Assembly (NCBI GenBank): GCA_012813795.1
Contig: GCA_012813795.1_4087.1
From: a phage
Reading direction: 5' to 3' (one strand)
Length of the DNA stretch: 64,000 nucleotides
A program made the position numbers and the translations under genes. The notes below the pieces were generated by a model, which was given only the letters and a program-made list of their open reading frames with translations, made no database searches and was not told the DNA's origin. Shown here piece after piece: positions 13,033 to 38,707 of this stretch. Each line of letters begins with the position of its first letter. The first letter of the stretch is position 1.

Positions 13033-13191
13033 TTAACCGCCGTGTTTAGAAAATTCAACTGCTCTTAATTGTTTAAGTGCTTCTTTTCTGGTTGGGTGAC
13101 GACCGAGAACTTTCTTCCCTGTGTGGTCAGTAACAACCCACTCATTTCCACGTTTCTGTATCTTTTCCGAAATAATATCAAGATAACGCAT
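13033..13191 (-). CDS. Small ORF (52 aa) MRYLDIISEKIQKRGNEWVVTDHTGKKVLGRHPTRKEALKQLRAVEFSKHGG
   Basis: Below ORF-track size cutoff; ATG at 13191-13189 preceded by GGAG; start overlaps nrdG stop; ends just before terminator. Confidence 0.35.
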   Translation of the reverse strand: MRYLDIISEKIQKRGNEWVVTDHTGKKVLGRHPTRKEALKQLRAVEFSKHGG

Positions 13192-13657
13192 AATCTACTC
13201 CTTTACGAAGAATACGTTGATTATTAGAGCCTCTAAATGGTAATTCTAAATTCTTTTCTTCAAGAATAAATTTACCATCAACTAATACATCAATGTACTC
13301 TAGTATTGCGGAGGCATGATTATTTATTATTTCCTCTAAAGTATAACCACTCCAGCACCAAATATCTTTATTTGGATATTTTTCTTTTACTACTTTACAT
13401 AACTCAACAACAGTACTGATATTCTTTGGCATCAATGGATCACCACCAAGAAGTGACAACCCTTGTACATATGGCTTGTTAAGTTCATTCAGGATGATAT
13501 CAACTGTTTCAGTACTGAATTCTGAACCACTGCGATAATCCCATGCTTTTTCGTTGAAGCATTCTTCACATCCGTGGCTACACCCTGAAACAAAAAGGGA
13601 GCATCTAACTCCCTCTCCATTGACTAAATCATCCTTGATTATCGTCTGGTAATTCAT
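13178..13657 (-). CDS. nrdG: Anaerobic ribonucleotide reductase activating protein (radical SAM)
   Basis: N-terminal VNGEGVRCSLFVSGCSHGCEEC cysteine cluster typical of NrdG activases; directly downstream of nrdD. Confidence 0.85.
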   Translation of the reverse strand: MNYQTIIKDDLVNGEGVRCSLFVSGCSHGCEECFNEKAWDYRSGSEFSTETVDIILNELNKPYVQGLSLLGGDPLMPKNISTVVELCKVVKEKYPNKDIWCWSGYTLEEIINNHASAILEYIDVLVDGKFILEEKNLELPFRGSNNQRILRKGVDYALS

Positions 13658-13964
13658 CTAATATTGCACTCACTATTTCAACAAGAACATCTCCGTGACA
13701 TGATTTGGGCTTACAAAAGCACCCAAGACGCTTCCCAGCCAATTCAAGTAGTTCTTCGATAGTAACCTCACCATTATCAATTCTTTGGATAAGATACTCT
13801 CTGAACTTCTCAATCGACTCTTCTCGTGTCGGAACTATAAACTCTGCCTTTGTTTGTTTGTCATTAATGTGGGTAAATGGATTTCCCCATTTAGACCCAC
13901 GACCAATATACACATCATATGGTTCTTTATATTTGTTAACTACAATTGGTTTTAAGTCCATCAT
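13629..13964 (-). CDS. Conserved hypothetical protein with Cys/His cluster (DUF4326-like)
   Basis: [12 protein letters not shown] ... [15 protein letters not shown] motif pattern; 111 aa. Confidence 0.45.
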
Positions 13965-14323
13965 AGACCTTTAGTAAAAGTACGATTGATTACATCATCT
14001 TGTTGTTCTTTTGTTAGTGAATTGAAACGAACTGCATAACCACTAACACGAATTGTAAGTTGCGGATACTTTTCTGGATTATTTTGTGCATCAATGAGTT
14101 GTTCTTTAGATAGAACATTTACATTCAAGTGCTGACCACCTTCAATATTCGGTGCGTGTTGAATTTCCACATCACGCAGTACCTCACCATCAAAAGTACT
14201 CAAAAGTACTTCATCATCTTCGGAAATGGTCTTTGATACAATAATACGTGCAATATCATTTTCTATTAGCATGATAGTTCCACGGTGCTCACCAGACATG
14301 ACTTGTTTACCTTGAATTGACAT
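13961..14323 (-). CDS. grcA: Autonomous glycyl radical cofactor, GrcA/YfiD-like
   Basis: C-terminal [10 protein letters not shown] ... [21 protein letters not shown] ... RTFT is near-identical to the conserved GrcA glycyl-radical domain. Confidence 0.85.
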
Positions 14324-14332
14324 AATATCTCC

Positions 14333-16138
14333 TTACATGTGTTGTATACGTTGAATAACTTCAGCTTGTTTACCTTTATTGAACGGGCGACTATTTGGGG
14401 CACTAAGATATCCCGAAACTCTGCGAATAACCGACATTGTGCGTTCATTGCGGTTGTCACATACCGGACAATGGAAACCATTTTTATCTACACTAAATTC
14501 ACCCTCAAAATCACATTCAAAACACTTATCGACCTTCTGATTAATACCAAAATATGGAATTTTAGTATAAGCAAAATTTATTAATGTTTCAAGTGCTTGT
14601 ATATTATTAGCTAGATTTGGTGTTTCAACATAGCTAATATTACCACCATTGCTTAGATAAGCAAAGTTTTCCTCATAATCCCATTTAGCAAAAGGTGTAC
14701 TTTCAACCCATACTGGTTGATGGAATGAGTTAGTGATAAAGTCACGTTTCAGTACTGAAGGATGTTTTGCCTCAATACAACGTGCAAATTTATAACATAG
14801 TGATTCTGCTGGTGTACCGTAAAGACTAAATGCAATGTTACTCTCTTTTTTGAATTCATCACATTTTGCTTTCATGTAGTTCAAAATACTCATACAGAAC
14901 TCTTTACTAATAGAACCAGTGAGGATCTCTGAACACTCAGATAACCCAACATAACCAATACTGATACTAGCATAACCATTATAAAATAAATGGTCAATAG
15001 TGTCTTCAGGATCAAGACGTGCAATCGCACCTTCAGCGAAAAGTATAGGGTTTTGTTTTGCCTTTGTACCTTTTAAACGTTCTACACGGTTCATCTGTGC
15101 TCTGTAAGCAATATTCATGTGCTCATCAATCTTATCAAAGAAATCACCATCAGACTCACTCTCAAGAGCAATTAGTGGTAAGTTGATAGACACAACGCCA
15201 AGGTTGAATCTACCATTGTATTTTTCTTCTCCTTGTATATTTTCCCATTTCCCTAAGAAACTTCTGCATCCCATAGGAGTAACAGGAATAGTTGTGCTTC
15301 CAGTAACTTTTTGATTCAAAGGTACGGATACAAAATCAGGATAGATGCGTTTAGCTGCACAACGCATAGCTAATTGTTTTAAGTCATAATTACAATCAGT
15401 ACTGTTCATATTAATTCCATCCTGAAGAAAGAATATTACTTTAGGAAATACTGGAGTAATCTTATCTTTACCTAGTCCATTTTCATGTACTTTCAAATAT
15501 TGTTCAGTGATTAGTTTTTCAAATTTAGATGTACCTAATCCTAAACTCAAAGAAATGAACGCAGCCTGGCCATTAGTACTGATCATTGAGTTTGTTTGAT
15601 ATAGAATTGTTTGACAACCGTCATAAACTTCCTTACGCAACTCATCTTCGATGAATTCAGTGCTAAGATTGTATTTCTTTTGTTTTTCTAGGAGTTTATC
15701 CCATGACTTTTGTACATATGGTGCAAGGCCAGTGTCAATGTGAGCCAACGACTGACCACCGTATTGTGAGCTTGCAACAGCCTGAACGATCTGGGTTAGT
15801 ACTGTACAAGCTACCCCAAAGCTTTTTGGTTCTTCAATCTTGGCACAACCAATCATGAAGCCATTAGCAAGCATATCAGGATAATTAACTAAACAACAGT
15901 TTGTTAATGGGCTAATGTAATAGTCTAAATCATGAATATGACCGTAACCTTCATTATGCCACTTCATCAATTCATCAGGAATCACATCTTGGGAATAATG
16001 TTTAGAAAGAATACCTGCCAATAAATCACGATGTGTATTAACACATTTAGCGTCTTTATTTGCATTTTCGTTTGTTAAATCAGCGTTACTCTGGTTGAGG
16101 AAGTTAGTTACGTCCGTATATAATTTATCTATTTGCAT
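14333..16138 (-). CDS. nrdD: Anaerobic ribonucleoside-triphosphate reductase (class III), intact and uninterrupted
   Basis: 601 aa; C-terminal Zn ribbon CFECDFEGEF ... CPVCDN and glycyl radical motif RRVSGYLSAPNSRPFNKGKQAEV. Confidence 0.9.
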   Translation of the reverse strand: MQIDKLYTDVTNFLNQSNADLTNENANKDAKCVNTHRDLLAGILSKHYSQDVIPDELMKWHNEGYGHIHDLDYYISPLTNCCLVNYPDMLANGFMIGCAKIEEPKSFGVACTVLTQIVQAVASSQYGGQSLAHIDTGLAPYVQKSWDKLLEKQKKYNLSTEFIEDELRKEVYDGCQTILYQTNSMISTNGQAAFISLSLGLGTSKFEKLITEQYLKVHENGLGKDKITPVFPKVIFFLQDGINMNSTDCNYDLKQLAMRCAAKRIYPDFVSVPLNQKVTGSTTIPVTPMGCRSFLGKWENIQGEEKYNGRFNLGVVSINLPLIALESESDGDFFDKIDEHMNIAYRAQMNRVERLKGTKAKQNPILFAEGAIARLDPEDTIDHLFYNGYASISIGYVGLSECSEILTGSISKEFCMSILNYMKAKCDEFKKESNIAFSLYGTPAESLCYKFARCIEAKHPSVLKRDFITNSFHQPVWVESTPFAKWDYEENFAYLSNGGNISYVETPNLANNIQALETLINFAYTKIPYFGINQKVDKCFECDFEGEFSVDKNGFHCPVCDNRNERTMSVIRRVSGYLSAPNSRPFNKGKQAEVIQRIQHM

Positions 16139-16371: not shown

Positions 16372-16557
16372 TTAATTAGTCTCATCTGGACTCCATGTAA
16401 TAGTTACAGTAAATGTACCTTCCTGGAAGCCATATTCATCTTGTGGGATTTGTTCAGCTAATGGGTTAAATCTTGAATCAAAAGCTTCATGCACATCTCT
16501 TTGGATATCATATAGACTTTCACCATCATATTCTTTTTTGAAGATTTCATTCTGCAT
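16372..16557 (-). CDS. hypothetical protein
   Basis: 61-aa ORF, acidic. Confidence 0.4.
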   Translation of the reverse strand: MQNEIFKKEYDGESLYDIQRDVHEAFDSRFNPLAEQIPQDEYGFQEGTFTVTITWSPDETN

Positions 16558-16957
16558 TTAAACGTAACGACCCTCTGAATGTGTCTGGATAACTGTCTAA
16601 TAGATCGATTAGTCTATTAAACGCATGAGTACTGATGAATGGATGTTTCTTCGCGAGTTCGATGCGTTTCTCAAAATCCATTAATGTAATCTCGGTTCTA
16701 TTGAAACTACCTTTACGTCTGTACGTTAGTAAACGCTCTTTGTGTCCATTAAGCTGGAAATCAAAATATGTTGTTGTAGTATAATCACTATCATCACTGA
16801 TAGGCTTTGAAAAATCCAGATTATACGTAGAACCAAATGCGAAAAAGAAACCACCATCTTCCAATGGGATATCTTTATCGCTTAGATTGAAATCTGATTC
16901 ATCGCATAAAATATCAAATATCTTTCTACTTAATTTTAGAAACTCATCTTCTAACAT
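16547..16957 (-). CDS. hypothetical protein
   Basis: 136-aa ORF. Confidence 0.45.
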   Translation of the reverse strand: MLEDEFLKLSRKIFDILCDESDFNLSDKDIPLEDGGFFFAFGSTYNLDFSKPISDDSDYTTTTYFDFQLNGHKERLLTYRRKGSFNRTEITLMDFEKRIELAKKHPFISTHAFNRLIDLLDSYPDTFRGSLRLNAE

Positions 16958-16959
16958 AG

Positions 16960-17181
16960 TTATTCCTCGTTTTCATTTGGAATACAATATACAAATACTA
17001 AATGCTTAAAGTGATCAGTACTGGAATATAATGCCAATTCATGTAATGGGAAATTTGTATCTTTAAATTTACCATTTTCGTATATAGTTATTTGTAACGA
17101 ATGTTTTGGCTCAAAAATATAATAGTACATTATTGATTCACCAAAAAGTACAGTATGGTGCTGATATCGTTCAATTTTCAT
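16960..17181 (-). CDS. hypothetical protein
   Basis: Track ORF 16960-17229 trimmed to internal ATG at 17181 (MKIERYQHH), immediately after the stop of the deaminase gene. Confidence 0.4.
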   Translation of the reverse strand: MKIERYQHHTVLFGESIMYYYIFEPKHSLQITIYENGKFKDTNFPLHELALYSSTDHFKHLVFVYCIPNENEE

Positions 17182-17546
17182 GTATGGATAATCTCTTTTA
17201 CCCCGTACTCCTGAATTGCTAATGTACAAATCTCACAAGGTTTAGCTGGTACTGGGATACCATCTTTGCTTACACGAGCGATAAGAAGAGTATGTACTTC
17301 AGCACGAGCAGCAAGAAGACACGAAATTTCAGCGTGTAAAAATTCCCCTTGTGGACGACCAGCACGAATTGCAAAGCCTTTCTGCTTAGGGTGAGTCTGT
17401 GTGTAAGAGTTGGTACGAGTAGCCAGTACTCGACCTTTCTTATCCAGTGCACGAGCAATTACTCTATACCGTTTGTAATTGCCAACTTGTTCAATCGGCG
17501 GCATCTCACGGAGTTCTTCTACCAGTTTAAGCAATTTCGGGTTCAT
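17178..17546 (-). CDS. Zinc-dependent cytidine/deoxycytidylate deaminase-family protein
   Basis: HAE ... PCEIC zinc-binding signature (FLHAEISCL ... AKPCEICTLAI); 122 aa; distinct from the dCMP deaminase at 38228-38707. Confidence 0.5.
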   Translation of the reverse strand: MNPKLLKLVEELREMPPIEQVGNYKRYRVIARALDKKGRVLATRTNSYTQTHPKQKGFAIRAGRPQGEFLHAEISCLLAARAEVHTLLIARVSKDGIPVPAKPCEICTLAIQEYGVKEIIHT

Positions 17547-18160
17547 ATGTTGTAGTCTATACCTTTTCTAAGTGATTCCTCAAGCACCCATAGTTTACAT
17601 TCCTCGGATTGTAAATGTTTGTTTGCCTCTTCTTGTTCTTCTATTGTACAAGTTTTGAGGAATTCTTTCAAGGCTTTTATTGTACCTTTAATGTTTTCAA
17701 TATCACCTGGAATATAATCAAGTTCAATTTCAGATAATTTTGAGTTCTCCCATGTGTTACGAAGTTCTTCTGGTTGGAACATTGATGAAGGAAAAACACT
17801 TTTCGTCACTACACGCTGATGTACAGAATCATACTTAGCTTCCGCTTCTTCTTGTGTGTAATCACCGTACTTTTCTAGGATCTTGGTGTATAAATTATCA
17901 ATTGCTTCTTCATATGTATCACCACCACAATCCAACTCGTACTCATGTCCACGAACAAACTTCCCTTCGTCTTCATCGAAAAAAGGAGTTAGCATTTCGA
18001 TCCAGTACTGTGTTTTTGTATTCAGGGCCGGATAATCTTCAATTCGATTTGTGATGGGACATACATCGTGTGGCTCAACATCAATGCGAGCATCAACGTA
18101 GTCTTTATTGATAAATTCAGGGTGTCCCAAAATCCACCAGTACTTTTGTGATGTAGTCAT
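17543..18160 (-). CDS. hypothetical protein
   Basis: 205-aa ORF, acidic. Confidence 0.5.
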   Translation of the reverse strand: MTTSQKYWWILGHPEFINKDYVDARIDVEPHDVCPITNRIEDYPALNTKTQYWIEMLTPFFDEDEGKFVRGHEYELDCGGDTYEEAIDNLYTKILEKYGDYTQEEAEAKYDSVHQRVVTKSVFPSSMFQPEELRNTWENSKLSEIELDYIPGDIENIKGTIKALKEFLKTCTIEEQEEANKHLQSEECKLWVLEESLRKGIDYNI

Positions 18161-18204
18161 ATAGTCTCCATAAAAAGTACTGCCACATGGACAGTACTGA
18201 ACTA

Positions 18205-19008
18205 TTAGTAGTCTTCGTTATATGCAAAAGCGTAATGAGAAATTAGTTTATCGTTATACGATACTAAGGTGTAATGTCTACCTTCATCTGATTCAAATAA
18301 GCGGTATTCGATTTGACCCCATTTTTCTTTTTTAATGCGTTTTGCTTTTTCAACATCATATTCTTGCTTTAGGAATGCTTTACAATCAGCAGTCGTTTTG
18401 ATATCAACGGAATCGGGACTATACAATGAACGCCCAATAACTTCAGACATAAAGGCATTAATACCTTTATTCTTACTTTCATCAATATCCATATGACTTT
18501 CAAAAGTGCCAATTTCAATCAATTCTAAATTAGAAAGCTTACTCCATTCTATTAATGTAATATTATCAAGAAGGCAGTAATCATCTTCAAGTTCACCGAT
18601 ATTGGTTTTCATACCAAACATTAGATAAGTTCCATCATTTGCAGTATCCGGTTTACCTAAAACGACAGTTCCATCACAATTGTTTAATGCACATTTTAGG
18701 TCATCTGCTTCTTCTTCACAATCAACATCGGCATTTTTATAAATCGTATCAAAAACCCATTGTTTGTCATGTAACGGAATAACAAAATCATCAACATTGG
18801 TAATCTGTTCTTTCCAATCTAGTAATGGACTTACGGTTTGATTGATTTCTGGAATAACTAAAACGTTTGGTTCAGAAACTACTTCATCATATACATTAAC
18901 ATCTTCATAAGTGACGAGAAGAGAACGAGAAGGTTTAGGACATTTCAATGTATGTGGTTCATGGTAGAATTTAGTTTTTGAACAATGCTTACAGATTGGA
19001 TTCGACAT
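18205..19008 (-). CDS. hypothetical protein
   Basis: Track ORF 18205-19176 trimmed to ATG at 19008 (MSNPICKHCSK), which has GAGGA 7 nt upstream and abuts the stop of the upstream gene; the longer N-terminus looks non-protein-like. Confidence 0.5.
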   Translation of the reverse strand: MSNPICKHCSKTKFYHEPHTLKCPKPSRSLLVTYEDVNVYDEVVSEPNVLVIPEINQTVSPLLDWKEQITNVDDFVIPLHDKQWVFDTIYKNADVDCEEEADDLKCALNNCDGTVVLGKPDTANDGTYLMFGMKTNIGELEDDYCLLDNITLIEWSKLSNLELIEIGTFESHMDIDESKNKGINAFMSEVIGRSLYSPDSVDIKTTADCKAFLKQEYDVEKAKRIKKEKWGQIEYRLFESDEGRHYTLVSYNDKLISHYAFAYNEDY

Positions 19009-19018
19009 GGATTGATCC

Positions 19019-19378
19019 TCAGATATAACGTTTCTTTTTATAATCATACCCGATTGCTTTATAAAAGTCAAACAATGAAGCATGGGTAAACGTAGGTAAT
19101 AGATCATATGGGTGCTGATAGTTTGCAATGCCAACAATTTTAAGCATTGATACCGCAGTTCTTGCATTATCTTCATCCCATTCGTCTAAACGCCAAAGGG
19201 AACAAAGCACTGCTCGTTCATGTTGCTTACCGAGAAAGAATTCAGCTTCACGGTCACGGAATGCACCTACGCTGATAGTACTTTTGTACCAGTCTTTCTC
19301 ACCATAAGCTGGTAGACGAATGATGTGCTTTTCTTCAGCTTTACCAAAACGATGTAGGAATGCAACATAATCACTCAT
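19019..19378 (-). CDS. hypothetical protein
   Basis: 119-aa ORF. Confidence 0.45.
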   Translation of the reverse strand: MSDYVAFLHRFGKAEEKHIIRLPAYGEKDWYKSTISVGAFRDREAEFFLGKQHERAVLCSLWRLDEWDEDNARTAVSMLKIVGIANYQHPYDLLPTFTHASLFDFYKAIGYDYKKKRYI

Positions 19379-22618: not shown

Positions 22619-24058
22619 TTACATATTTTCTTCTGCAAACTCTGCAAGTGCAGAACGTACAACACCTTCCAATTCAATGATACGACACCCTTCCCAATCT
22701 TTGAATTTTTCAGTTACATATGTCAAACCACTATTAACTGGACTAATAAACTTACTATCAATCTGTGCTAAGTTACCCATAATGATAACCTTACAGTTTT
22801 GACCAGCACGGGTAAGAATAGTCTTTGCCTGTGCAGGGGTGATGTTCTGGAATTCATCTACAATTAGAATTGTATTAGTAAAAGAACGACCACGAATAAA
22901 GTTCAATGCTTTAAACTGCATTACGTTACGTTTGAGAATCTCTTCAATGCTACCTTGTGGGTTAGCATCATCTTTGTGTAGATACTCTAGAGCATCGATT
23001 GCAGCCCCACAGAATGGGATGACCTTTTCAGCTTCAGAACCAGGCAAGAAACCAATTTCTTCAAATTGAGAATCTTGTGTTTTGGAGAAGATTATACGAT
23101 CATATTTACGTTTTTCCAGCACTAATTCAAGGGAAGTAGCAACGGTAATCAGTGTTTTACCAGTACCTGCTGAACCTAGTAGTACTGTCAAATGTACATC
23201 AGGGTCAAGAATACTGTTAATTGCTAGTGCCTGTTGAATATTCTTTGCTTTAATATCCCAAACTTTAGCACGAAGAGCGATACTTTGACCAATATCCTGG
23301 AATACCAAAATATCTTCAGGTGTTAGTGAACCGTCTTCTTCTTCGATAGCAGATTGACCTTCGTATACGAATAGTACATCAGCATTATCATATAGATAAT
23401 CACCAATACATAGATTATCTGGTAGAACATCTTGAATCAATGCGGTTGGAATATAGTGATATAGACGGCGACCTTCTTGTTGGGATTTAATTTCAGCATT
23501 GTTAACTTCACTGAATGTTTTCCAGAAATCAATATCAAGGTGGTGCTGTCCAATATGAATCAACTCACTATCTTCGATTGCAACGTCATGGCGGTAATCT
23601 TGTACCTCAACACCGTAGCTCATTGCTTTGATACGCATGTTAATGTCGCGAGTTACCAGTACTGATTGTGATGCCAAAGCCACTAGAATGATTTTGTCAT
23701 CTGGTACAGTACTTTTAAGTAGAGTTTCTACTTTATCTTCACTGCCGCCCATACGAATAAGTGCTTCAGCTTCTTCATTCGTCATAACGAATAGCTTACT
23801 GGATGCATCCATATTTTTGTGGATATTGGCAATATTAACACCAGTACTGCTGATTTCTTCATGAGTAGCATCTTTCAGAATTGCATCGATGTTACGGATT
23901 GCGAAACGTGCATCACGTGATACGTCAACATTACGGCTCTTGATTGAATCAAGTTCTTCAAGAACAGTGAATGGTAGAATCACTGCTGCCCCATCAAATG
24001 CTACGGTTGCATTTGGATCGGATAGTAGTACGTTTGTGTCAATTGTGTATTTTTTCAT
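22619..24058 (-). CDS. phoH: PIN-domain / PhoH-like ATPase fusion (PhoH2/YlaK-type)
   Basis: N-terminal PIN-like acidic residues (YTIDTNVLL ... LEELD); C-terminal Walker A LLGSAGTGKT and PhoH core ILIVDEFQN; start set at ATG 24058 with AAGGA upstream. Confidence 0.8.
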   Translation of the reverse strand: MKKYTIDTNVLLSDPNATVAFDGAAVILPFTVLEELDSIKSRNVDVSRDARFAIRNIDAILKDATHEEISSTGVNIANIHKNMDASSKLFVMTNEEAEALIRMGGSEDKVETLLKSTVPDDKIILVALASQSVLVTRDINMRIKAMSYGVEVQDYRHDVAIEDSELIHIGQHHLDIDFWKTFSEVNNAEIKSQQEGRRLYHYIPTALIQDVLPDNLCIGDYLYDNADVLFVYEGQSAIEEEDGSLTPEDILVFQDIGQSIALRAKVWDIKAKNIQQALAINSILDPDVHLTVLLGSAGTGKTLITVATSLELVLEKRKYDRIIFSKTQDSQFEEIGFLPGSEAEKVIPFCGAAIDALEYLHKDDANPQGSIEEILKRNVMQFKALNFIRGRSFTNTILIVDEFQNITPAQAKTILTRAGQNCKVIIMGNLAQIDSKFISPVNSGLTYVTEKFKDWEGCRIIELEGVVRSALAEFAEENM

Positions 24059-24122
24059 AAAACATCCTTGAGTTATGAGCACATCCTTGTGCTCTACGGT
24101 AGATTATAGACTCAGACACTTC

Positions 24123-24762: not shown

Positions 24763-25311
24763 TTATAAGTAACTAATCAGTAAATTCTCGGATTGAACAA
24801 GATGTTCTAATTCCATTTTAGCAGTTCCTATGAAGTTTTGTGTCATAAGATTATTATATCCTGCTTCTCGGTTTTGTCCCTTTGAATAACGAGAAATGTG
24901 ACATAAATTAACACCAGCCACTTCTGCACTTGCATGTTTAGCAGTACTGTATCCATCGCGAATCGCTTTCAATTCTTCGTAAGTAACTTCATAACTATAG
25001 CTATGGGTATGTGCTCCTGGATATAGTTCGTAAGTTTTCAATGGTTTCAATTGTTCGATAAAAATATTATAATTCATCTCTTCCTGAATTTCACGGAATA
25101 GTGCATCTTCTAAGGTGGCATCGGTATCTTCGACTGTTCCACCACAACCACCCAGTAAACCATCCCAACGAAGCTGGAGTAATACCAGATTCACAACAGG
25201 GATATCATTTAATTCATAACCTTTATATGGGTTACAATTTCGAGCAAAGAAGTAACAGAATACAAAGTTTGCTCGTTTACCATACTCACCTAGAGGTACT
25301 TCTCGAATCAT
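24763..25311 (-). CDS. hypothetical protein, divergent Nudix-like motif
   Basis: GGTVEDTDATLEDALFREIQEEMN approximates the Nudix box G-x5-E-x7-REUxEE but with altered spacing; weak. Confidence 0.3.
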   Translation of the reverse strand: MIREVPLGEYGKRANFVFCYFFARNCNPYKGYELNDIPVVNLVLLQLRWDGLLGGCGGTVEDTDATLEDALFREIQEEMNYNIFIEQLKPLKTYELYPGAHTHSYSYEVTYEELKAIRDGYSTAKHASAEVAGVNLCHISRYSKGQNREAGYNNLMTQNFIGTAKMELEHLVQSENLLISYL

Positions 25312-26060
25312 TTCATTCTATCCTTAATGATAGTTTCCAGTACTGGAATCGCTTTTGTAGCTGGTTTTATAATTTTTTCATTGAACATGAAATCGTTATC
25401 ATTTTTTCTGATGTTGATATTAACACTAAAGCATGGTAAACAAGCAACCAGATGTGACCATTTCAGTACTGTGTCACTGCTACCAATGACTACAACTGTA
25501 TCATCTTCTGTTAAGGATTGCAATACTAAATTACGCTCATCGTATATTGGGAGTTTTTCACCATCAACATAACGATAATATTCACCAATGAACACTACGT
25601 TTGGTTTCGCAAAGACACCTTCTTTCGGAATGTACGGTTCATAACCACAATCCACAATACTATAATCGTCACCACCAATTGTAAAATTCTCAATAACTTC
25701 TTTTAAATTACCATGTAACTTTAATTCATTACCACCAATACGAGTATAGAGATCATCCATATTCGAAGTCATATGTAAAAAGTTATCCCCGTATGTATCT
25801 TCTAGAGATTTGATATAATAATGCATATCATTAGGAACACAATCTTTCATTTTATCACGTAATGTATTATAGAAAGTGTGTACTAAATGATACTTAGTAC
25901 TAAGACGTGCAATGTTACATACATCATTTATTTGAAATTGATCCCATAGACCATCGTCCATGCGAAACGGTTCCATCCCACTTTCAACGGATAGACCTGC
26001 ACCGGAAATAACCAATACACGTTTATTACCTTTATTTTTTATAAAAGAGTCAGAAATCAT
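25308..26060 (-). CDS. Sir2-family NAD-dependent protein
   Basis: VLVISGAGLSVESGMEPFR (GAGxS ... PxFR), LHGN, PNVVFIGE and VVVIGSSDTV match Sir2 NAD-binding motifs. Confidence 0.6.
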   Translation of the reverse strand: MISDSFIKNKGNKRVLVISGAGLSVESGMEPFRMDDGLWDQFQINDVCNIARLSTKYHLVHTFYNTLRDKMKDCVPNDMHYYIKSLEDTYGDNFLHMTSNMDDLYTRIGGNELKLHGNLKEVIENFTIGGDDYSIVDCGYEPYIPKEGVFAKPNVVFIGEYYRYVDGEKLPIYDERNLVLQSLTEDDTVVVIGSSDTVLKWSHLVACLPCFSVNINIRKNDNDFMFNEKIIKPATKAIPVLETIIKDRMK

Positions 26061-28138: not shown

Positions 28139-31100
28139 ATGAAACCAATAGCTGGCTTAGATCAATTTCCATTTGTTATAGGTGGATTGCAGGTTACTGC
28201 TGCAAAGATAGAAGGGCAAGTATTTGTTAAAGAATTGTATGTTATAAAACAAAGAACATTCGATTCGTATGATTTGATATCTGAAAATTTCAAGATTTAC
28301 AAAGATATAAAAATCACAGGTAGAAATAAAGATAAATCAACATTGACGTATGATGATGACGATGCTGAAATTGCTAAATCTTTAGCAAATAATACATTTT
28401 GCATAAAAGAATCTGATGATTTTAACAAAAAATATGGTTTTGGTATACAATATCAATTGAATAAAATAAAATTACATAATGGTGAAGTGATATTTAGACA
28501 ATCCTCAATTCGACCATCAGTACTTAATGGTGTTTTCATTACACCGAGTTCATTTGAGATTGATGTTGGTCAACAACAAGTATTTGACGCGATATATGAT
28601 CCACAAAGTTGGATTAATAAAAATGGTACTTGGGATTATGATAAATCAGTTTTTGATGTGGTTTCTTTTACACAAACATCAATCACACTTCTCGCTAAAC
28701 AAGATGCCATTAATACAGAAATAAAATATTCACCTACTGGACGAGAAATAAATCGCATAGCAGTCAGTATAGGTTCAGTAGTAGATAACACTTCTATAAT
28801 TAAAAACATTTCAATAACACCTAATGTCATAAATTCCAAATTATCTGAAGATTTTACAGTTAATGTAGTTTATGATCCTATCAAATATAAATTCAAATCA
28901 GGTAAATGGTCTGTCAGTGATACATCAGTACTACAATTTGTTTCTGGTGATGGTGAAACTGCGACATTTAAACCTATCAGCGTTGGTTCTTCCACAATAA
29001 CATTCACATTAGATAAAGATAGTACAAAAACTGCAACTGCATCAGTTGAAGTATCTTATGCAGATTTAAAATCCGTCACAATATCACCAGAAAATGTAAC
29101 TGGTACTATAGGTGAAACTGGTAGTATTTCAATAAGTTATGTACCAGATAATGCACAAAAAGGTGGTTCATGGGCTATTTCTGATAAATTAATACTAAAA
29201 GAATTATCATCGACAATATCAGAATTTGATTATGAATTGGTTGGTAATGGAACAACATATGCTACATTCGTCCCATTAGCTAATTATGATGGTTCAATGA
29301 TAACTGCTAAATTTGATGTTAACTATTCAAAACTTGAAAACATTGTTCTTACACCTTCATCAGTTAGTAATCTAGTTCCAGGCGACACAGGAAAAATTAG
29401 TATTGAATATACACCAAGTACTGTTGAAACTGGTGGTACATGGTCATTCAATCCAACTGGTGTAATAGAACAAGATCTCAGCAAAAGTACGAGTACTGAA
29501 ATGTATTATAATGTATTAATCCCAGGTACATCAACTGCAACATTCCACCCAACTGCGTCATATGATGGAACTCCTAAAACTGTTTCATTTGAAGTTGGGA
29601 ATTCCGAGTTAACTGGTATTACGCTAACACCTACTACATCAACCGTAAAAATTGGTGATGATTTCTATATTGATATTACATATGAACCAAACACTGCTCT
29701 ACATGAAGGTACATGGAATACATCAGATTTTGAGAAATATGTAACACTCGAATCAGATAGTACACCTGATCGTGCACATTTTAAAGCTATAGGTGTGATT
29801 GATTCTGTTAATCTGACATATTCAAAAGGAACAATTAGTGCAACTAACAAATGTGCAGTTAATTATTCTGATTTAAAATCTATCACATTAAGTCCAACTG
29901 CAACATATGCTAAACTTGGTGATGATTTCTATGTAGATATTGCATATGATCCAGACACAGCACAACACACGGGTTCATGGAATACATCAGATTTTGAGAA
30001 ATATGTAACACTAGAATCAGATAGTACACCTGACCGTGCACACTTCAAAGCAATTGATTTAGTTGATGAAGTTGATTTGGTATATTCGAATGGTAATATA
30101 AGTGATACGAATTATTGTGGAGTTAGTCGTCCACCATTAATTTCAGTTTCATTGTCACCTTCTTCTGAAAAAGTTAAAGTTGGTGATTCCTTTAATGTGA
30201 AGATTACATATAACCCTAATACTGCTCAACATTACGGTGAATGGAATTTGGATGAAATAAAAGAATATCTTACATATGATTCGGATCTTAGTGTTTATGA
30301 TGTGGCTGTGTTTGATGTTATTAAACGTTCTGAAACACCAATAGAATTGAAATTTACAAGTGCAGGTAAAACTGCAACAAACACTTGTGAATTTGAAGAA
30401 GCTGTGTTAACCGGAATTTCATTGAAAATACAAGAAAATACGCCAATATACGACAGCCTATATGTTGTACCATATAAAGGTGACATATATATTGATGTTC
30501 TACCTATTCCAGCCGACGCAAAATTACCAGACGATATTGGAACCATCACTGATAATACGGGATTATATGATTTAACGTTTTTTGATTTTTTGAGTTTTAA
30601 TAAAGAAAAAAGTACAAATCACCGTTTGTATTTTGATTTTGTTTCATCATTTGATGAGTATATGTATTTTATTGAGGAATCTTCAAAAGGATTAATATTC
30701 ACATATACACTGTCTAATGGTATGACGGTAGACTCACCGGCAATGGTAACAAATTTTCCAGAACTGACGAAAGTCACCCTTGTGCCATCATCTGGAAAAT
30801 GTGATGTTAACTCAATAATAAAATGCGAGGCAACACTTGATAATGGTATGTCAACTTATTATATTAATCCGTTGAGTACTTATACAAGTGAACACGAGGA
30901 TTATTTGGTAATTGAAGATAGAACATCCTTTCAGCCGTTTGATGAATTCCTTGAACCAATTGAAATTGTAGGTAAACTTCCAACAAATATATATGTACCA
31001 GATGGTAATTACGTATATTTCACATATACACTATCAACCACACCTGCCCAACCGTTGATTGATTATAATATTTACATATATGATAGTAATGAATGTATAA

Positions 31101-31426
31101 AAGGACGTATAAAAAATCCAACAGACGTAGTTAACATAAAATATATGAATGTCTTTTTCTTTGACATAGAGAATAATCCACCAAATGCTTTATATAGAGG
31201 AAAAATGGAAGGTGGTATTCCTGTTACGTTTCAATATGACACCCAAAATTCTAGATTAAATTCGTATACTTATATGGTACAGGGGGTAACTGATGGACCA
31301 ATAACTCTAAAATACACTTCATCTGCTACTGGTGTTATTAGAACTGCACAAGTTGATGTTACTGGACCAATGACTGATGATAGTAATAAAACTGATGAGG
31401 GGGGTGATGGTGATTTACTTAAATGA
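28139..31426 (+). CDS. Giant Ig-like (Big_2/Hoc-like) repeat protein 1
   Basis: 1095 aa built from ~85-90-aa repeats with Y.DLKS ... GD.FY.DI.Y.PDTA.H.G.W ... F.A pattern; AAGGAGA upstream; two near-identical 264-bp tandem DNA repeats inside. Confidence 0.65.
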   Translation: MKPIAGLDQFPFVIGGLQVTAAKIEGQVFVKELYVIKQRTFDSYDLISENFKIYKDIKITGRNKDKSTLTYDDDDAEIAKSLANNTFCIKESDDFNKKYGFGIQYQLNKIKLHNGEVIFRQSSIRPSVLNGVFITPSSFEIDVGQQQVFDAIYDPQSWINKNGTWDYDKSVFDVVSFTQTSITLLAKQDAINTEIKYSPTGREINRIAVSIGSVVDNTSIIKNISITPNVINSKLSEDFTVNVVYDPIKYKFKSGKWSVSDTSVLQFVSGDGETATFKPISVGSSTITFTLDKDSTKTATASVEVSYADLKSVTISPENVTGTIGETGSISISYVPDNAQKGGSWAISDKLILKELSSTISEFDYELVGNGTTYATFVPLANYDGSMITAKFDVNYSKLENIVLTPSSVSNLVPGDTGKISIEYTPSTVETGGTWSFNPTGVIEQDLSKSTSTEMYYNVLIPGTSTATFHPTASYDGTPKTVSFEVGNSELTGITLTPTTSTVKIGDDFYIDITYEPNTALHEGTWNTSDFEKYVTLESDSTPDRAHFKAIGVIDSVNLTYSKGTISATNKCAVNYSDLKSITLSPTATYAKLGDDFYVDIAYDPDTAQHTGSWNTSDFEKYVTLESDSTPDRAHFKAIDLVDEVDLVYSNGNISDTNYCGVSRPPLISVSLSPSSEKVKVGDSFNVKITYNPNTAQHYGEWNLDEIKEYLTYDSDLSVYDVAVFDVIKRSETPIELKFTSAGKTATNTCEFEEAVLTGISLKIQENTPIYDSLYVVPYKGDIYIDVLPIPADAKLPDDIGTITDNTGLYDLTFFDFLSFNKEKSTNHRLYFDFVSSFDEYMYFIEESSKGLIFTYTLSNGMTVDSPAMVTNFPELTKVTLVPSSGKCDVNSIIKCEATLDNGMSTYYINPLSTYTSEHEDYLVIEDRTSFQPFDEFLEPIEIVGKLPTNIYVPDGNYVYFTYTLSTTPAQPLIDYNIYIYDSNECIKGRIKNPTDVVNIKYMNVFFFDIENNPPNALYRGKMEGGIPVTFQYDTQNSRLNSYTYMVQGVTDGPITLKYTSSATGVIRTAQVDVTGPMTDDSNKTDEGGDGDLLK

Positions 31427-31462
31427 TTATAAATTAATTTTAATGCTAAGGAGAAATATTTT

Positions 31463-33982: not shown

Positions 33983-34052
33983 TAGACTGAAATTACTTTA
34001 CAAAAAAAATGTGGTTGAATATTCAACCACATAATAAGAAGGAAACATAATT

Positions 34053-35678
34053 ATGATAGAAGATTCAAAAAATCTTATTTCAGTTAGTTTAAACAAAAGA
34101 ACTATTAGAACTTCTGTTCGTGATGTTAACACATTATATGTTAGTTTTAATCCACCTGACTATATTAATCAGGTTGGAACATGGACATATGATGAACAGT
34201 ATATTGAAATGATCACACAAGATAATTTGGTTTTTGTTTTTAAATCTATAAAAAGTGGTGTAACCACCATAACATACACACCACGTGATAATAAAGCATT
34301 ATCGAAGAATTGTATAGTTAATATTGAAAAAATACCATTATCATCAATTAGTCTTAACCCAAATTATATAACTTTATACAAAGGTCAAACTTTTGATATT
34401 GATATATCATATATCCCAGATGGAGCAGTTCATTCGGGTAATTGGAGTAATTTAAACAATGATATATTGTATATAGGTCAACAAAGTACACCTGATAAAT
34501 CAAGAATGCAAGTACTAACAACTGATGCTAAGATGATAACTTTATATTATACCAGTGGCGAAATATCAGTTCCTTTGAATTGTACTATATTGAACAACCC
34601 AGCAGATGAAATTATTTTCGATCCACCATCACCAATTAATGTAACAGTTGGTGAGAGTTTTTTTGTAAACATAAACTATGCACCAGAAAATGCGGATAAG
34701 GTTGGATTCTGGGAATATGATGATTCAGTACTGATGTTATTGAATGATAGTGATAAGGCATCCAGTGCACATTTTGTGGCTACCAAAAAAACCACATCAA
34801 CTGGAACTGAACTTAAATTCCGTTCAGGTGATGTGTACTCAACGTTACAGTGCTTTATAACTCCTGGTGTTTTAGATTTATTAACATTAACACCTAGTTA
34901 TGAAACGGTGGTTGTTGGTGACGCGTTTGACATTGGAATAACCTATTACCCAGAAGACATAATTCACAAAGGTATATGGGAATATGATTCTACATATTTC
35001 AAAAAAATGTTCGATGACTCAAATACTGCAACATTTAGATTAATCAAAAAATCCGACATACCATTAAAATTAAGATATATCTCTTATGGGAGAGCATTTA
35101 ATAATATATGCACTACTGTTGAAAATGGTGATTTAGTTTCATTACAATTAAACCCTAATTCCGAATCAGTTGAGGTTGGTAAAAGTTTTGATATCGCAAT
35201 AACATATAAACCTGATAATGCTTTACATAGTGGTATATGGGATTTCGATTCGGAATATATTAAATTGGAAAAATCAAGTACAGTGGATAAAGCAACATTT
35301 ACAGTACTGAAATATAATCCAAATCCATTAACATTAACTTATAAATCAGGTAAAACAACTGCAACAAACAAATGTATTACTGTAAAAAATACACCAGTAT
35401 TAAGTAGTATTAAAGTATCCCCAGAATCAACTGAAATGAAAGTTGGTGATACAGTATTATTATCAATTTCATACAACCCTAATACAGTAGAGCATATGGG
35501 AATGTGGTATTATGATAAAAAACTATTCAAATTAATAGACACAGGTCAAACACATGACTATGGTATATTTGAATGCTTGGCGGTGTCAGACGCAAAATCA
35601 CCAATAGTATTTTCAAGTGCTGGAAATGCTGATGCTTGTATTGTCACAACTAAAGAAAAAACAACTAAAGAGGATTAA
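34053..35678 (+). CDS. Giant Ig-like repeat protein 3
   Basis: 541 aa, same repeat signature (YIPDGAVHSGNW, YKPDNALHSGIW). Confidence 0.65.
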   Translation: MIEDSKNLISVSLNKRTIRTSVRDVNTLYVSFNPPDYINQVGTWTYDEQYIEMITQDNLVFVFKSIKSGVTTITYTPRDNKALSKNCIVNIEKIPLSSISLNPNYITLYKGQTFDIDISYIPDGAVHSGNWSNLNNDILYIGQQSTPDKSRMQVLTTDAKMITLYYTSGEISVPLNCTILNNPADEIIFDPPSPINVTVGESFFVNINYAPENADKVGFWEYDDSVLMLLNDSDKASSAHFVATKKTTSTGTELKFRSGDVYSTLQCFITPGVLDLLTLTPSYETVVVGDAFDIGITYYPEDIIHKGIWEYDSTYFKKMFDDSNTATFRLIKKSDIPLKLRYISYGRAFNNICTTVENGDLVSLQLNPNSESVEVGKSFDIAITYKPDNALHSGIWDFDSEYIKLEKSSTVDKATFTVLKYNPNPLTLTYKSGKTTATNKCITVKNTPVLSSIKVSPESTEMKVGDTVLLSISYNPNTVEHMGMWYYDKKLFKLIDTGQTHDYGIFECLAVSDAKSPIVFSSAGNADACIVTTKEKTTKED

Positions 35679-35681
35679 ATC

Positions 35682-37930: not shown

Positions 37931-38231
37931 ATAGTTCAATATTACCAGATAACACACTGTAATCTTTATTCATAAGTTCACAAACATATGATACAGTTGA
38001 AACATCTTTGTAATAAATTGTTAACCCAAAACGACCACGGATACGTTCTTCTTTTTCTTGATACATGAATGTTCGTACAACGTAGTACTTATTATTCTTT
38101 GGTTCATAACGTGCTTCGTACCCTTTAACTTTGTAAGCACTAGTAGAAGTACAAATAATCAATGACACAATAACCCACACGATTATAAAGAATGCCATTA
38201 GTCCAAGAAAAACAAAAGCTTGAATCATCAT
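37929..38231 (-). CDS. Small membrane protein
   Basis: N-terminal hydrophobic helices AFVFLGLMAFFIIVWVIVSLII. Confidence 0.45.
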   Translation of the reverse strand: MMIQAFVFLGLMAFFIIVWVIVSLIICTSTSAYKVKGYEARYEPKNNKYYVVRTFMYQEKEERIRGRFGLTIYYKDVSTVSYVCELMNKDYSVLSGNIEL

Positions 38232-38707
38232 TTTAATCCCATGTCAAATATACAGTTAACTTCAATCCCAGCATCTTCCAGTACTTTAATAGCTTCTAGT
38301 GGAGTGCGAGGATACGATTTTTCGTAAATTACACGAGAAATACCACTACCAGCGATTAACTTAGAACAAGTATAGCACGGTTGGAGTGTGGTGTAAAGTG
38401 TTGCACCCTGACGTTCTTGTGGTGAACTATATAGTAATGCATTCATTTCCGCATGGATCTCATGAATGTTGCTCCACTCGTGATGTAAGTGTTTTGCATC
38501 TTCATCAATCCAATTTTGAAATTGACCATTGTTTACGAGATGTTTATTAACATCACAACAGTTAGGTTGCTTTGATGGTGTACCGTTATATCCAGTACTC
38601 AATACTCGGTTATTCTTTACAATAACACAACCTACTTTCTGGGAAAGACACTTACTTTCCTCAGCAACGACACTGGCTATCTTCAACCACGTTGTATGTT
38701 TCATCAT
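38228..38707 (-). CDS. cd: Deoxycytidylate (dCMP) deaminase
   Basis: HAEMNALL and PCYTCSKLIAGSGI zinc-binding motifs and overall similarity to T4 Cd as recalled from memory (not aligned). Confidence 0.8.
   Translation of the reverse strand: MMKHTTWLKIASVVAEESKCLSQKVGCVIVKNNRVLSTGYNGTPSKQPNCCDVNKHLVNNGQFQNWIDEDAKHLHHEWSNIHEIHAEMNALLYSSPQERQGATLYTTLQPCYTCSKLIAGSGISRVIYEKSYPRTPLEAIKVLEDAGIEVNCIFDMGLK

What the first reader, a model, noticed from the sequence alone, without database searches (positions are those of the whole stretch)
17178..17546. Second small zinc deaminase in addition to dCMP deaminase
A 122-aa protein with HAE...PC..C zinc-binding motifs (FLHAEISCL...AKPCEICTLAI) lies among unknown genes, while a clear T4-like dCMP deaminase is at 38228-38707. 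A second minimal cytidine-deaminase-fold enzyme could act on a different substrate (free nucleoside or nucleotide, tRNA or DNA bases) and may relate to nucleotide pool or DNA modification chemistry.
Basis: partly seen in the sequence, partly recalled or inferred. Interest (0 to 1): 0.45.

Follow-up and report, generated by a model that had tools for sequence, protein, structure and literature searches.

The report
Phage mini zinc cytosine deaminase
This giant E. coli phage carries, besides its ordinary T4-type dCMP deaminase, a real second zinc deaminase that belongs to a large, phage-only family of unusually small and very basic enzymes whose substrate nobody has tested.

Summary
The minus-strand ORF 17178-17546 encodes a 122-aa protein with intact HAE and PCxxC zinc motifs. 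It passes Pfam PF00383 (30 bits, cut-off 25) and AlphaFold models it confidently (pLDDT 93) as a deaminase core. A T4 Cd-like dCMP deaminase sits at 38228-38707.

The window is an Asteriusvirus jumbo phage, 98% identical to Escherichia phage A4, where this gene is already annotated 'dCMP deaminase'. The paper on the related phage CBB already lists two CMP/dCMP deaminases.

What is new is the nature of the family:
- It is phage-restricted, with about 600 representatives at 50% identity.
- Members are 100-140 aa and strongly basic (median pI 9.65).
- By profile it is closest to dCMP deaminases (cyanophage S-TIM5 enzyme, E 4.5e-11).
- It lacks their second zinc site, helix 4 and the rest of the C-terminus.
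- Longer relatives end in a beta4-beta5 hairpin; the window protein stops after beta4.

It co-resides with canonical dCMP deaminases in several lineages, sometimes as the adjacent gene. It usually lies in replication and nucleotide-metabolism modules (RNR, ThyX, DnaB, PolA).

Best reading (about 0.5): a minimal cytosine-nucleotide deaminase without the usual regulatory region, distinct from Cd in substrate form or control. Main rival (about 0.25): it acts on polynucleotides. The substrate is inferred, not shown.

The parts
17178..17546 (-). Mini zinc deaminase, 122 aa, pI 9.7. Predicted zinc ligands are H71, C104 and C107; the catalytic residue is E73; N46 is the sugar-contacting Asn. The family signature is N46-S-Y-x-(K/Q)-T-H52-P53-x-Q55 plus R91. 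The chain ends right after beta4 (residues 118-121).
38228..38707 (-). Canonical T4 Cd-like dCMP deaminase, 159 aa, pI 7.0. It aligns to T4 Cd across the segments that hold the second (structural) zinc site. It is the co-resident 'first' deaminase.
17543..18160 (-). Upstream ORF, 205 aa, of unknown function (PHROG 16370). Its stop overlaps the deaminase start by ATGA. It sits directly upstream in all five Rak2-like loci examined and in none of the other lineages.
16960..17181 (-). Downstream small ORF, 73 aa from its ATG, whose start overlaps the deaminase stop by ATGA. It has no family match and is not conserved among relatives, so it is unlikely to be a partner.
13178..16138 (-). Anaerobic ribonucleotide reductase cluster (nrdD 14333-16138, two small ORFs, nrdG 13178-13657), about 1 kb downstream on the same strand. 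This is the nearest nucleotide-metabolism context.

Best explanation
The gene encodes an active, stand-alone zinc-dependent cytosine deaminase from a phage-restricted 'mini' offshoot of the dCMP-deaminase lineage.

Proposed chemistry (inferred from conserved residues): H71, C104 and C107 hold a zinc-bound water and E73 shuttles protons. N46 and the hydrophobic beta1 residue I30, together with A72 and P103, hold the deoxycytidine moiety. Conserved basic residues around the pocket (R91, K94, K102, and position 50, which is K in most members and Q here) hold phosphate.

The protein lacks the second zinc site, helix 4, beta5 and the remainder of the C-terminus of T4-type dCMP deaminases. I therefore infer that it lacks their control by dCTP and dTTP, and that its active site is more open.

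Most likely role: it deaminates a deoxycytidine nucleotide. The phosphorylation state (dCMP, dCDP or dCTP) or a 5-substituent is undetermined but probably differs from what Cd handles. This would feed dUMP/dUTP into dTTP synthesis for a 34% G+C genome replicating in a roughly 51% G+C host (host value from my own knowledge), alongside the regulated Cd enzyme.

Shown: the fold, the catalytic residues, the family distribution, the truncation, the charge and the gene context. Inferred: the substrate, the absence of allostery and the physiological role.
For: - Catalytic motifs are nearly invariant across 142 diverse members: N46 99%, H71 99%, E73 100%, P103/C104/C107 99%.
- The residues that contact the dC moiety in T4 Cd are Val24, Asn40, Ala105, Glu106 and Pro131, and its catalytic-zinc ligands are His104, Cys132 and Cys135 (PMC12697855). 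All have conserved counterparts here: I30, N46, A72, E73 and P103, and H71, C104 and C107. This mapping rests on my gap-free alignment of the beta1-beta2 segment and on the profile alignment.
- In a family-profile search of PDB sequences the nearest solved relatives are dCMP deaminases: S-TIM5 4.5e-11, S. mutans 1.1e-7, T4 4.4e-6, human 6.9e-6. PHROG 174 'dCMP deaminase' matches at 5.8e-13.
- Gene context is replication and nucleotide metabolism. NrdD/NrdG lie about 1 kb downstream here and in other Rak2-like phages.
- In other phage lineages, NrdA/NrdB lie within 6 kb in 3 lineages, DnaB in 7 and PolA in 3.
- ThyX lies 5-9 kb away on the same strand in 6 lineages, and 5 of these have no canonical dCMP deaminase within 10 kb.
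- The window is AT-rich at 34.4% G+C.
- Phage enzymes of the dCMP-deaminase family are experimentally known to differ in preferred substrate (dCMP, dCDP, dCTP, 5mC nucleotides), so two paralogues need not be redundant (PMC12697855; bioRxiv 10.1101/2024.12.05.627091).
Against: - No biochemical data exist for any member.
- The family is uniformly very basic: median pI 9.65, 194 of 200 above 8.5, and 12 alignment columns conserved as K/R. Co-resident canonical dCMP deaminases have pI 5-7, apart from one of pI 9.0 whose start codon is uncertain. That much conserved positive charge is more than a mononucleotide site needs and suggests a polyanionic ligand.
- The dCMP-deaminase signature HAExNA is replaced by HAEIxAL, which resembles the TadA motif as I recall it.
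- The C-terminal topology of longer relatives is a beta4-beta5 hairpin, as I recall for cytidine and blasticidin-S deaminases, not the helix-4 arrangement of dCMP deaminases.
- No neighbour is conserved across lineages, and much of the co-localisation with ThyX and RNR is what any gene in a compact replication module would show.
Confidence: 0.5

Rival explanations
1. It is a polynucleotide deaminase. The open active site and the conserved positive surface let it bind and edit cytosine (or adenine) in ssDNA, mRNA or tRNA, for host takeover, for tuning tRNA decoding, or for damaging host or competitor DNA.
For: - Extreme and conserved basicity: median pI 9.65, 12 conserved basic columns, and the 4th most basic of 101 ORFs in the window.
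- The protein is minimal. It has no helix 4, and in this clade no beta5, and I infer that this leaves the pocket more open. Longer relatives have the hairpin topology that, as I recall, bacterial toxin DNA deaminases also have. DddB and SsdA appear among the structural matches, though weakly.
- In a published screen, 56 of 194 soluble phage 'dCMP deaminase' homologues deaminated ssDNA in vitro (bioRxiv 10.1101/2024.12.05.627091).
- Coexistence with a canonical Cd argues for a different job.
Against: - It has none of the C-terminal helices that, as I recall, TadA uses to grip the anticodon loop.
- No family member carries a fused nucleic-acid-binding or targeting domain.
- There are no tRNA genes in this window.
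- Gene context is nucleotide metabolism and replication rather than translation.
- An untargeted DNA deaminase would also mutate the phage's own genome, and no inhibitor or immunity partner is conserved next to it.
Confidence: 0.25
2. It is simply a redundant second dCMP deaminase (the current database annotation), doing the same reaction as Cd on the same substrate and merely increasing flux.
For: It is annotated so in phage A4 and other relatives. The CBB paper treats both copies as dUMP suppliers (PMC5259590). The nearest solved sequence relatives are dCMP deaminases.
Against: - The two proteins share no detectable pairwise similarity.
- They differ in size, charge, the second zinc site and the C-terminal part.
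- Both types are retained together in unrelated lineages, sometimes as adjacent genes (L115; one gene apart in DC31). This is hard to reconcile with pure redundancy in streamlined phage genomes.
Confidence: 0.12
3. It deaminates a small cytosine- or adenine-containing molecule other than a DNA precursor. Candidates are free cytidine/deoxycytidine, a nucleoside antibiotic, or a cytosine-containing immune signal such as cCMP, in which case it would act as a salvage or counter-defence enzyme.
For: - The best Foldseek matches are tetrameric cytidine deaminases and blasticidin-S deaminases of the same size.
- It has a beta3-loop-PCxxC spacing that I recall as typical of cytidine deaminases, and relatives have the beta4-beta5 hairpin.
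- It often sits among small early-type genes of unknown function.
Against: - It scores 14.4 bits against the 113.65 cut-off of TIGR01354 tetrameric cytidine deaminase.
- It has HAE rather than the CAE that I recall as typical of cytidine deaminases, and Tyr at position 48 where, from memory, they carry a ribose-binding Glu in an N-x-E motif.
- It has no PADLOC match.
- No link to any defence or anti-defence locus was seen.
Confidence: 0.08

Closest known systems
dCMP deaminases of the T4 Cd / ComEB / DCTD family (PF00383, IPR016473), especially the compact 138-aa cyanophage S-TIM5 enzyme (PDB 4P9C)
   Same: Same catalytic HAE and PCxxC zinc site. The residues equivalent to the dC-moiety contacts of T4 Cd are conserved, and the beta1-turn-beta2 segment aligns without gaps. 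This is the best profile match among solved structures (E 4.5e-11). The phage replication and nucleotide-metabolism gene context is also shared.
   Different: - No second zinc site.
- No helix 4, no parallel beta5 and no further C-terminal segment, where I infer (from memory of the family) that part of the hexamer and effector-binding region lies.
- HAEIxAL instead of HAExNA.
- An insertion of about 10 residues between beta3 and PCxxC.
- pI about 9.7 against about 5-7.
- 100-125 aa against 138-193 aa.
- No pairwise similarity to the phage's own Cd.
Homotetrameric cytidine deaminase and blasticidin-S deaminase
   Same: Similar size (120-135 aa). These are the top Foldseek matches (TM 0.5-0.58). 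They share the loop between beta3 and the PCxxC helix, and longer relatives share the beta4-beta5 hairpin.
   Different: HAE instead of CAE. No N-x-E ribose motif and no C-terminal tail; from memory, the tail completes the neighbouring active site in these enzymes. TIGR01354 scores 14 bits against a cut-off of 114. In the window clade beta5 itself is missing.
tRNA adenosine deaminase TadA / ADAT2-ADAT3
   Different: It lacks the C-terminal helices that, as I recall, bind the tRNA anticodon loop. There is no NCBIfam TadA match, and profile E-values to the classical TadA chains are only 3e-4 or weaker.
Phage 'dCMP deaminase' homologues with altered substrates: PBS1, PhiR1-37 and DSS3_VP1 dCTP deaminases, and the 5mC-selective mSCD-B5
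   Same: These are phage-encoded single-domain zinc deaminases of the same superfamily whose real substrate differs from the annotation (dCTP, 5mC nucleotides, ssDNA). They are a precedent for a non-redundant second deaminase.
   Different: Those enzymes are full-length (about 154 aa for mSCD-B5) with the prototypical dCMP-deaminase fold. Many of them sit beside a thymidylate-synthase homologue. The mini family is a separate, shorter clade that has not been tested.

Membership tests
Cytidine/deoxycytidylate deaminase zinc-binding superfamily (Pfam PF00383, CDA fold) | Profile match above the curated threshold | tested here: met
   30 bits against a gathering cut-off of 25; 141 of 142 family members match PF00383 at E<=0.01.
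Cytidine/deoxycytidylate deaminase zinc-binding superfamily (Pfam PF00383, CDA fold) | H/C-A-E and P-C-x-x-C zinc and catalytic motifs at the N-termini of two helices packed on a beta-sheet | tested here: met
   In the AF2 model (pLDDT 93), HAE 71-73 starts helix 72-80 and PCEIC 103-107 starts helix 105-114, on a sheet of strands 29-34, 40-45, 86-92 and 118-121. All significant structural matches are deaminases.
Cytidine/deoxycytidylate deaminase zinc-binding superfamily (Pfam PF00383, CDA fold) | Five-stranded core sheet (beta1-beta5) | tested here: not met
   The chain ends at residue 122, directly after beta4. 106 of 190 family members have only 15-17 residues after CxxC. A longer relative does have beta5.
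T4 Cd-type dCMP deaminase | Residues contacting the deoxycytidine moiety (T4 Val24, Asn40, Ala105, Glu106, Pro131) | tested here: met
   The counterparts I30, N46, A72, E73 and P103 are conserved. The mapping comes from sequence alignment, not from a complex structure.
T4 Cd-type dCMP deaminase | Second, structural zinc site (T4 Cys19, Cys49, His94, Glu102) | tested here: not met
   There are no equivalent Cys or His residues in the 122-aa sequence. The phage's canonical Cd aligns to T4 Cd across the segments that hold this site.
T4 Cd-type dCMP deaminase | Helix 4 plus parallel beta5 and the C-terminal segment; allosteric control by dCTP and dTTP | tested here: not met
   The sequence ends after beta4. 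Relatives have only a 10-15-residue hairpin extension. Allostery itself cannot be tested here.
T4 Cd-type dCMP deaminase | dCMP to dUMP activity | not testable with these tools
   This needs an enzyme assay.
Homotetrameric cytidine deaminase (TIGR01354) | Profile match above the equivalog cut-off | tested here: not met
   14.4 bits against a cut-off of 113.65.
tRNA adenosine deaminase TadA | Profile match, and C-terminal helices that bind the anticodon loop | tested here: not met
   There is no NCBIfam TadA hit at E<=10 and no sequence after beta4. Structural similarity is limited to the shared core.
Anti-phage defence deaminases (PADLOC) | Match to a defence-system deaminase model | tested here: not met
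   The mini deaminase has no PADLOC family. The canonical Cd matches the dCTPase model, as expected for a shared domain.

The most novel reading that the evidence does not exclude
The family is a natural ultra-compact (100-122 aa, four- or five-stranded) nucleic-acid deaminase that phages use to edit cytosines in ssDNA, mRNA or tRNA during infection. It would be among the smallest known polynucleotide deaminases and a new class of phage host-manipulation enzyme, with obvious value as a base-editor scaffold.
Probability: 0.2. Interest if true: 0.75.

Novelty: new variant of a known kind. Interest (0 to 1): 0.4.

Why it matters
If the mini deaminase uses a different substrate or escapes the regulation of the canonical Cd, it would show how large lytic phages split control of pyrimidine pools between two enzymes. 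It would also explain why both are kept together in unrelated lineages.

The family is abundant in viral metagenomes, is uncharacterised, and is annotated inconsistently as 'dCMP deaminase', 'TadA' or 'hypothetical'. One biochemical study would therefore correct many annotations.

A deaminase core of about 100 residues that still keeps every catalytic residue marks the lower size limit of this fold. If it accepts polynucleotides, it would be an attractive compact editing domain.

Tried and rejected
- A single-sequence search of PDB sequences found no deaminase. Only a family profile did.
- I looked for a conserved partner gene. Clustering neighbours across 16 and then 115 loci found none outside the Rak2-like group. 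The translationally coupled downstream 73-aa ORF is not conserved, so it does not supply a missing beta5 in trans.
- No domain fusions were seen in the longer members checked.
- L018's 205-aa 'fusion' looks like a frameshifted copy.
- There are no tRNA genes in the window and no PADLOC match.
- The neighbours have no Pfam family, and their PHROGs are of unknown function.
- The ThyA motif scan found nothing. The ThyX motif scan gave three short false positives, which I discarded.
- The first locus scan with the broad alignment failed for lack of a conserved stretch.
- Literature searches found no study of this mini family. The S-TIM5 structure paper was not held.
- Whole-genome co-occurrence with canonical Cd, Dcd or Dut in phiKZ-like phages and cyanophages could not be measured, because only 10-kb flanks were available.

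Full report
**1. The observation**

The minus-strand ORF 17178..17546 is present and encodes 122 aa beginning MNPKLLKLVEELREMPP.... The quoted motifs are there: FLHAEISCL at residues 69-77 and AKPCEICTLAI at 101-111. Its ATG overlaps the stop of the upstream 205-aa ORF, and its TGA overlaps the ATG of a downstream 73-aa ORF, both as ATGA. It is therefore one gene in a dense minus-strand array.

It is not a chance motif match. Pfam PF00383 scores 30 bits against a cut-off of 25, and PHROG 174 'dCMP deaminase' gives 5.8e-13. The two proteins have no detectable pairwise similarity.

**2. Where the window comes from, and what is already annotated**

The region is 98.3% identical to Escherichia phage A4 (Asteriusvirus, 355 kb) and about 81% identical to 121Q, PBECO4 and Sharanji-type jumbo phages. 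In A4 the gene is A4_486, annotated 'dCMP deaminase', and the canonical one is A4_461, 'CMP/dCMP deaminase'. [quoted passage not shown] The bare fact of a second deaminase is therefore known at the annotation level. Other sources call homologues 'hypothetical', 'cytidine deaminase' or 'TadA'.

**3. The family**

- *Size and length.* Word-indexed and exhaustive searches give 51 close homologues and 597 cluster representatives (E<=1e-3). Of the 200 retrieved, most are 100-140 aa and all are 71-166 aa.
- *Phage distribution.* tblastn against GenBank phages finds the family in Asteriusvirus and other Rak2-like jumbo phages, Pectobacterium CBB, Erwinia and Yersinia jumbo phages, phiKZ-like Pseudomonas phages, Synechococcus phages (at least one a Kyanoviridae member), Aeromonas phages and a Limnohabitans phage.
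- *Restriction to phages.* One signature pattern (NSYxK[TS]HPxQ) found only 10 loci in representative genomes of 185,579 prokaryotic species, all on metagenome-assembled (MAG) contigs and nine of them shorter than 10 kb. With one further pattern it found at least 567 loci in IMG/VR. The family is thus essentially phage-restricted.
- *Conserved residues.* In 142 diverse members the conserved positions are A31, D35, G38, N46, S47, Y48, K50 (Q in the window protein), T51, H52, P53, Q55, A59, G63, L70, H71, A72, E73, R91, G96, A101, P103, C104 and C107.
- *Catalytic motifs.* HAE...PCxxC is kept in 190 of 200; seven of the other ten read HSE for HAE. This is the pattern of an active enzyme.
- *Architecture.* No domain fusions were seen.

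**4. Structure**

AlphaFold2 on a 52-sequence alignment gives pLDDT 93 and pTM 0.85. The elements are helix 3-14, strands 29-34 and 40-45, helix 53-61, the HAE helix 72-80, strand 86-92, a loop, the PCxxC helix 105-114 and strand 118-121, after which the chain ends.

The protein lacks helix 4 and beta5. Across the family, 106 of 190 members have only 15-17 residues after CxxC, and most of the rest have 23-31. A 137-aa relative of the longer kind (P0050) is modelled at pLDDT 90 with beta4 (123-128) and beta5 (131-136) joined by a two-residue turn. That is a C-terminal hairpin, the arrangement I recall for cytidine and blasticidin-S deaminases, not the helix-4 arrangement of dCMP deaminases and TadA. 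The window clade has lost even that hairpin. Some members of about 100 aa also lack the N-terminal helix.

**5. Nearest relatives by sequence**

The single sequence finds nothing relevant in the PDB. A profile of 142 members does:

| Solved structure | E-value |
|---|---|
| Cyanophage S-TIM5 dCMP deaminase (4P9C) | 4.5e-11 |
| M. capricolum tRNA deaminase | 1.1e-7 |
| S. mutans dCMP deaminase | 1.1e-7 |
| T4 Cd | 4.4e-6 |
| Human DCTD | 6.9e-6 |
| B. subtilis cytidine deaminase | 1.5e-4 |

Published analysis of T4 Cd lists the catalytic-zinc ligands His104, Cys132 and Cys135, the second-zinc ligands Cys19, Cys49, His94 and Glu102, and the contacts to the dC moiety Val24, Asn40, Ala105, Glu106 and Pro131 (PMC12697855). 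The beta1-turn-beta2 segment aligns without gaps (T4 VGAVIEKNGRIISTGYN against IARALDKKGRVLATRTN; my own alignment). On that basis the dC contacts map to I30, N46, A72, E73 and P103, all conserved. The second zinc site has no counterpart. The dCMP-deaminase signature HAExNA is replaced by HAEIxAL. The family is best described as a divergent, truncated offshoot of the dCMP-deaminase lineage and not as a member of the T4 Cd type.

**6. Charge**

The protein has pI 9.67 and net charge about +8. Family-wide the median pI is 9.65, 194 of 200 are above 8.5, and the median charge is about +9. Twelve alignment columns are conserved as K/R and only two as D/E. In the window it is the fourth most basic of 101 ORFs, whose median pI is 5.6. 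The phage's Cd has pI 7.0. Canonical dCMP deaminases that co-reside with mini deaminases in other contigs have pI 4.95-6.9, except one of pI 9.0 whose start codon is uncertain. This is the strongest hint that the ligand may be more polyanionic than a mononucleotide.

**7. Genomic context**

In the window the gene lies about 1 kb upstream of nrdD and nrdG. The six ORFs from 16372 to 19378 that flank it have no known function. The upstream 205-aa gene is conserved and directly adjacent only within the Rak2-like group. The downstream 73-aa ORF is not conserved.

Across 115 loci (107 clustered into 47 lineages at 70% identity) there is no universal neighbour. Recurrent neighbours within 6 kb are replication and nucleotide-metabolism genes: DnaB in 7 lineages, PolA in 3 and NrdA/NrdB in 3, verified with Pfam. 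ThyX lies 5-9 kb away on the same strand in 6 lineages, verified with Pfam. In 5 of those 6 there is no canonical dCMP deaminase within 10 kb.

Conversely, canonical and mini deaminases co-reside in several places:
- Asteriusvirus and CBB;
- Limnohabitans phage DC31, one gene apart and with ThyX nearby;
- IMG/VR contigs L115 (adjacent genes), L016, L047 and L093.

Retention of both, sometimes side by side, argues against plain redundancy.

**8. Interpretation**

Catalysis by a zinc-activated water with E73 as proton shuttle is a safe inference from the invariant residues. The substrate is not established. I favour a deoxycytidine nucleotide (confidence about 0.5). The reasons are the dCMP-deaminase ancestry, the conserved dC-contact residues, the replication, RNR and ThyX context, and the demand for dTTP in a 34.4% G+C genome.

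I propose that the enzyme differs from Cd in the phosphorylation state or 5-substituent it accepts, and that it lacks dCTP/dTTP control, because the parts of Cd beyond beta4 are absent. Experimental precedent shows that phage enzymes annotated 'dCMP deaminase' can be dCTP- or dCDP-preferring (PMC12697855). Others are 5mC-selective and active on ssDNA (bioRxiv 10.1101/2024.12.05.627091).

The main rival (about 0.25) is a polynucleotide substrate, supported by the charge, the probably more open minimal fold and the TadA-like helix motif. It is weakened by the lack of any RNA- or DNA-binding extension or protective partner and by the metabolic gene context. Plain redundancy with Cd (about 0.12) and a non-precursor small-molecule substrate (about 0.08) are less likely.

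**9. Novelty and verdict**

The finding is real and the fold assignment is right, but the second deaminase is already annotated in relatives. The added value is that it belongs to a large, phage-only, uncharacterised clade of very small, very basic deaminases with a truncated sheet, distinct from T4 Cd, cytidine deaminase and TadA by explicit membership tests. I found no paper describing this clade in the library searched. I rate it a new variant of a known kind, of moderate interest (0.4). Interest would rise substantially if a polynucleotide or otherwise unexpected substrate were shown.

**Caveats**

Only the window and database sequences should be relied on.
- The following also rest on my own knowledge and not on a tool result: the division of the deaminase fold into helix-4 and C-terminal-hairpin types; the CAE and N-x-E motifs and C-terminal tail of cytidine deaminases; the HAEIxAL motif and tRNA-binding helices of TadA; the E. 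coli G+C value; and the location of the allosteric region of dCMP deaminases.

Noticed in passing
L115:1239-3112 (IMG/VR contig IMGVR_UViG_3300037041_002424): A viral contig carries an ammonia/methane monooxygenase subunit C gene (AmoC, PF04896, 424 bits). It sits immediately upstream of a canonical dCMP deaminase and a 102-aa mini deaminase, and is followed by an AdoMet decarboxylase. This looks like an auxiliary metabolic gene in a phage of ammonia or methane oxidisers.
   Followed up: partly
window 28139-37883 (+ strand): Four large plus-strand ORFs (1095, 839, 541 and 733 aa) interrupt the otherwise minus-strand gene array. The corresponding stretch of phage A4 appears much shorter (one 2.2-kb gene plus small 'structural' genes), so this block differs between otherwise 98%-identical phages.
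   Followed up: no
window 51906-52838 and 53912-55057 (-); also 43259-44677 (-): ORFs of the same sizes as A4's polynucleotide kinase/3'-phosphatase (310 aa), RNA ligase (381 aa) and DNA ligase (472 aa) are present, suggesting a T4-like tRNA-repair set. The phAPEC6 paper suggests this counters the Prr abortive-infection system. I assigned them by length and gene order only and did not search them here.
   Followed up: no
window 25308-26060 (-) and 22619-24082 (-): By position and size these correspond to A4's Sir2-like protein (250 aa) and PhoH-like protein (487 aa). A phage-encoded Sir2-like gene may be of interest for NAD-related host-phage conflict.
   Followed up: no
L018:9986-10603: The mini-deaminase homologue runs on as a 205-aa ORF that has lost the second Cys of PCxxC (PCSICEGGNQ...). 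This is probably a frameshift or assembly error, or a decaying copy, and not a true fusion.
   Followed up: partly
window 13629-14323 (-): Two small ORFs sit between nrdD and nrdG: a 120-aa ORF annotated in A4 as 'pyruvate formate-lyase', and a 111-aa DUF4326-type ORF with weak PHROG matches to NrdA-like and DNA-repair families. From its position and name, the first may be a spare glycyl-radical domain for NrdD.
   Followed up: no
Pseudomonas phage Cassandra OR805292.1 54454-54777: A 288-kb Pseudomonas phage has a region of only about 108 aa that matches the canonical Cd query (34% identity) and is annotated dCMP deaminase. It may be another short deaminase type in jumbo phages.
   Followed up: no
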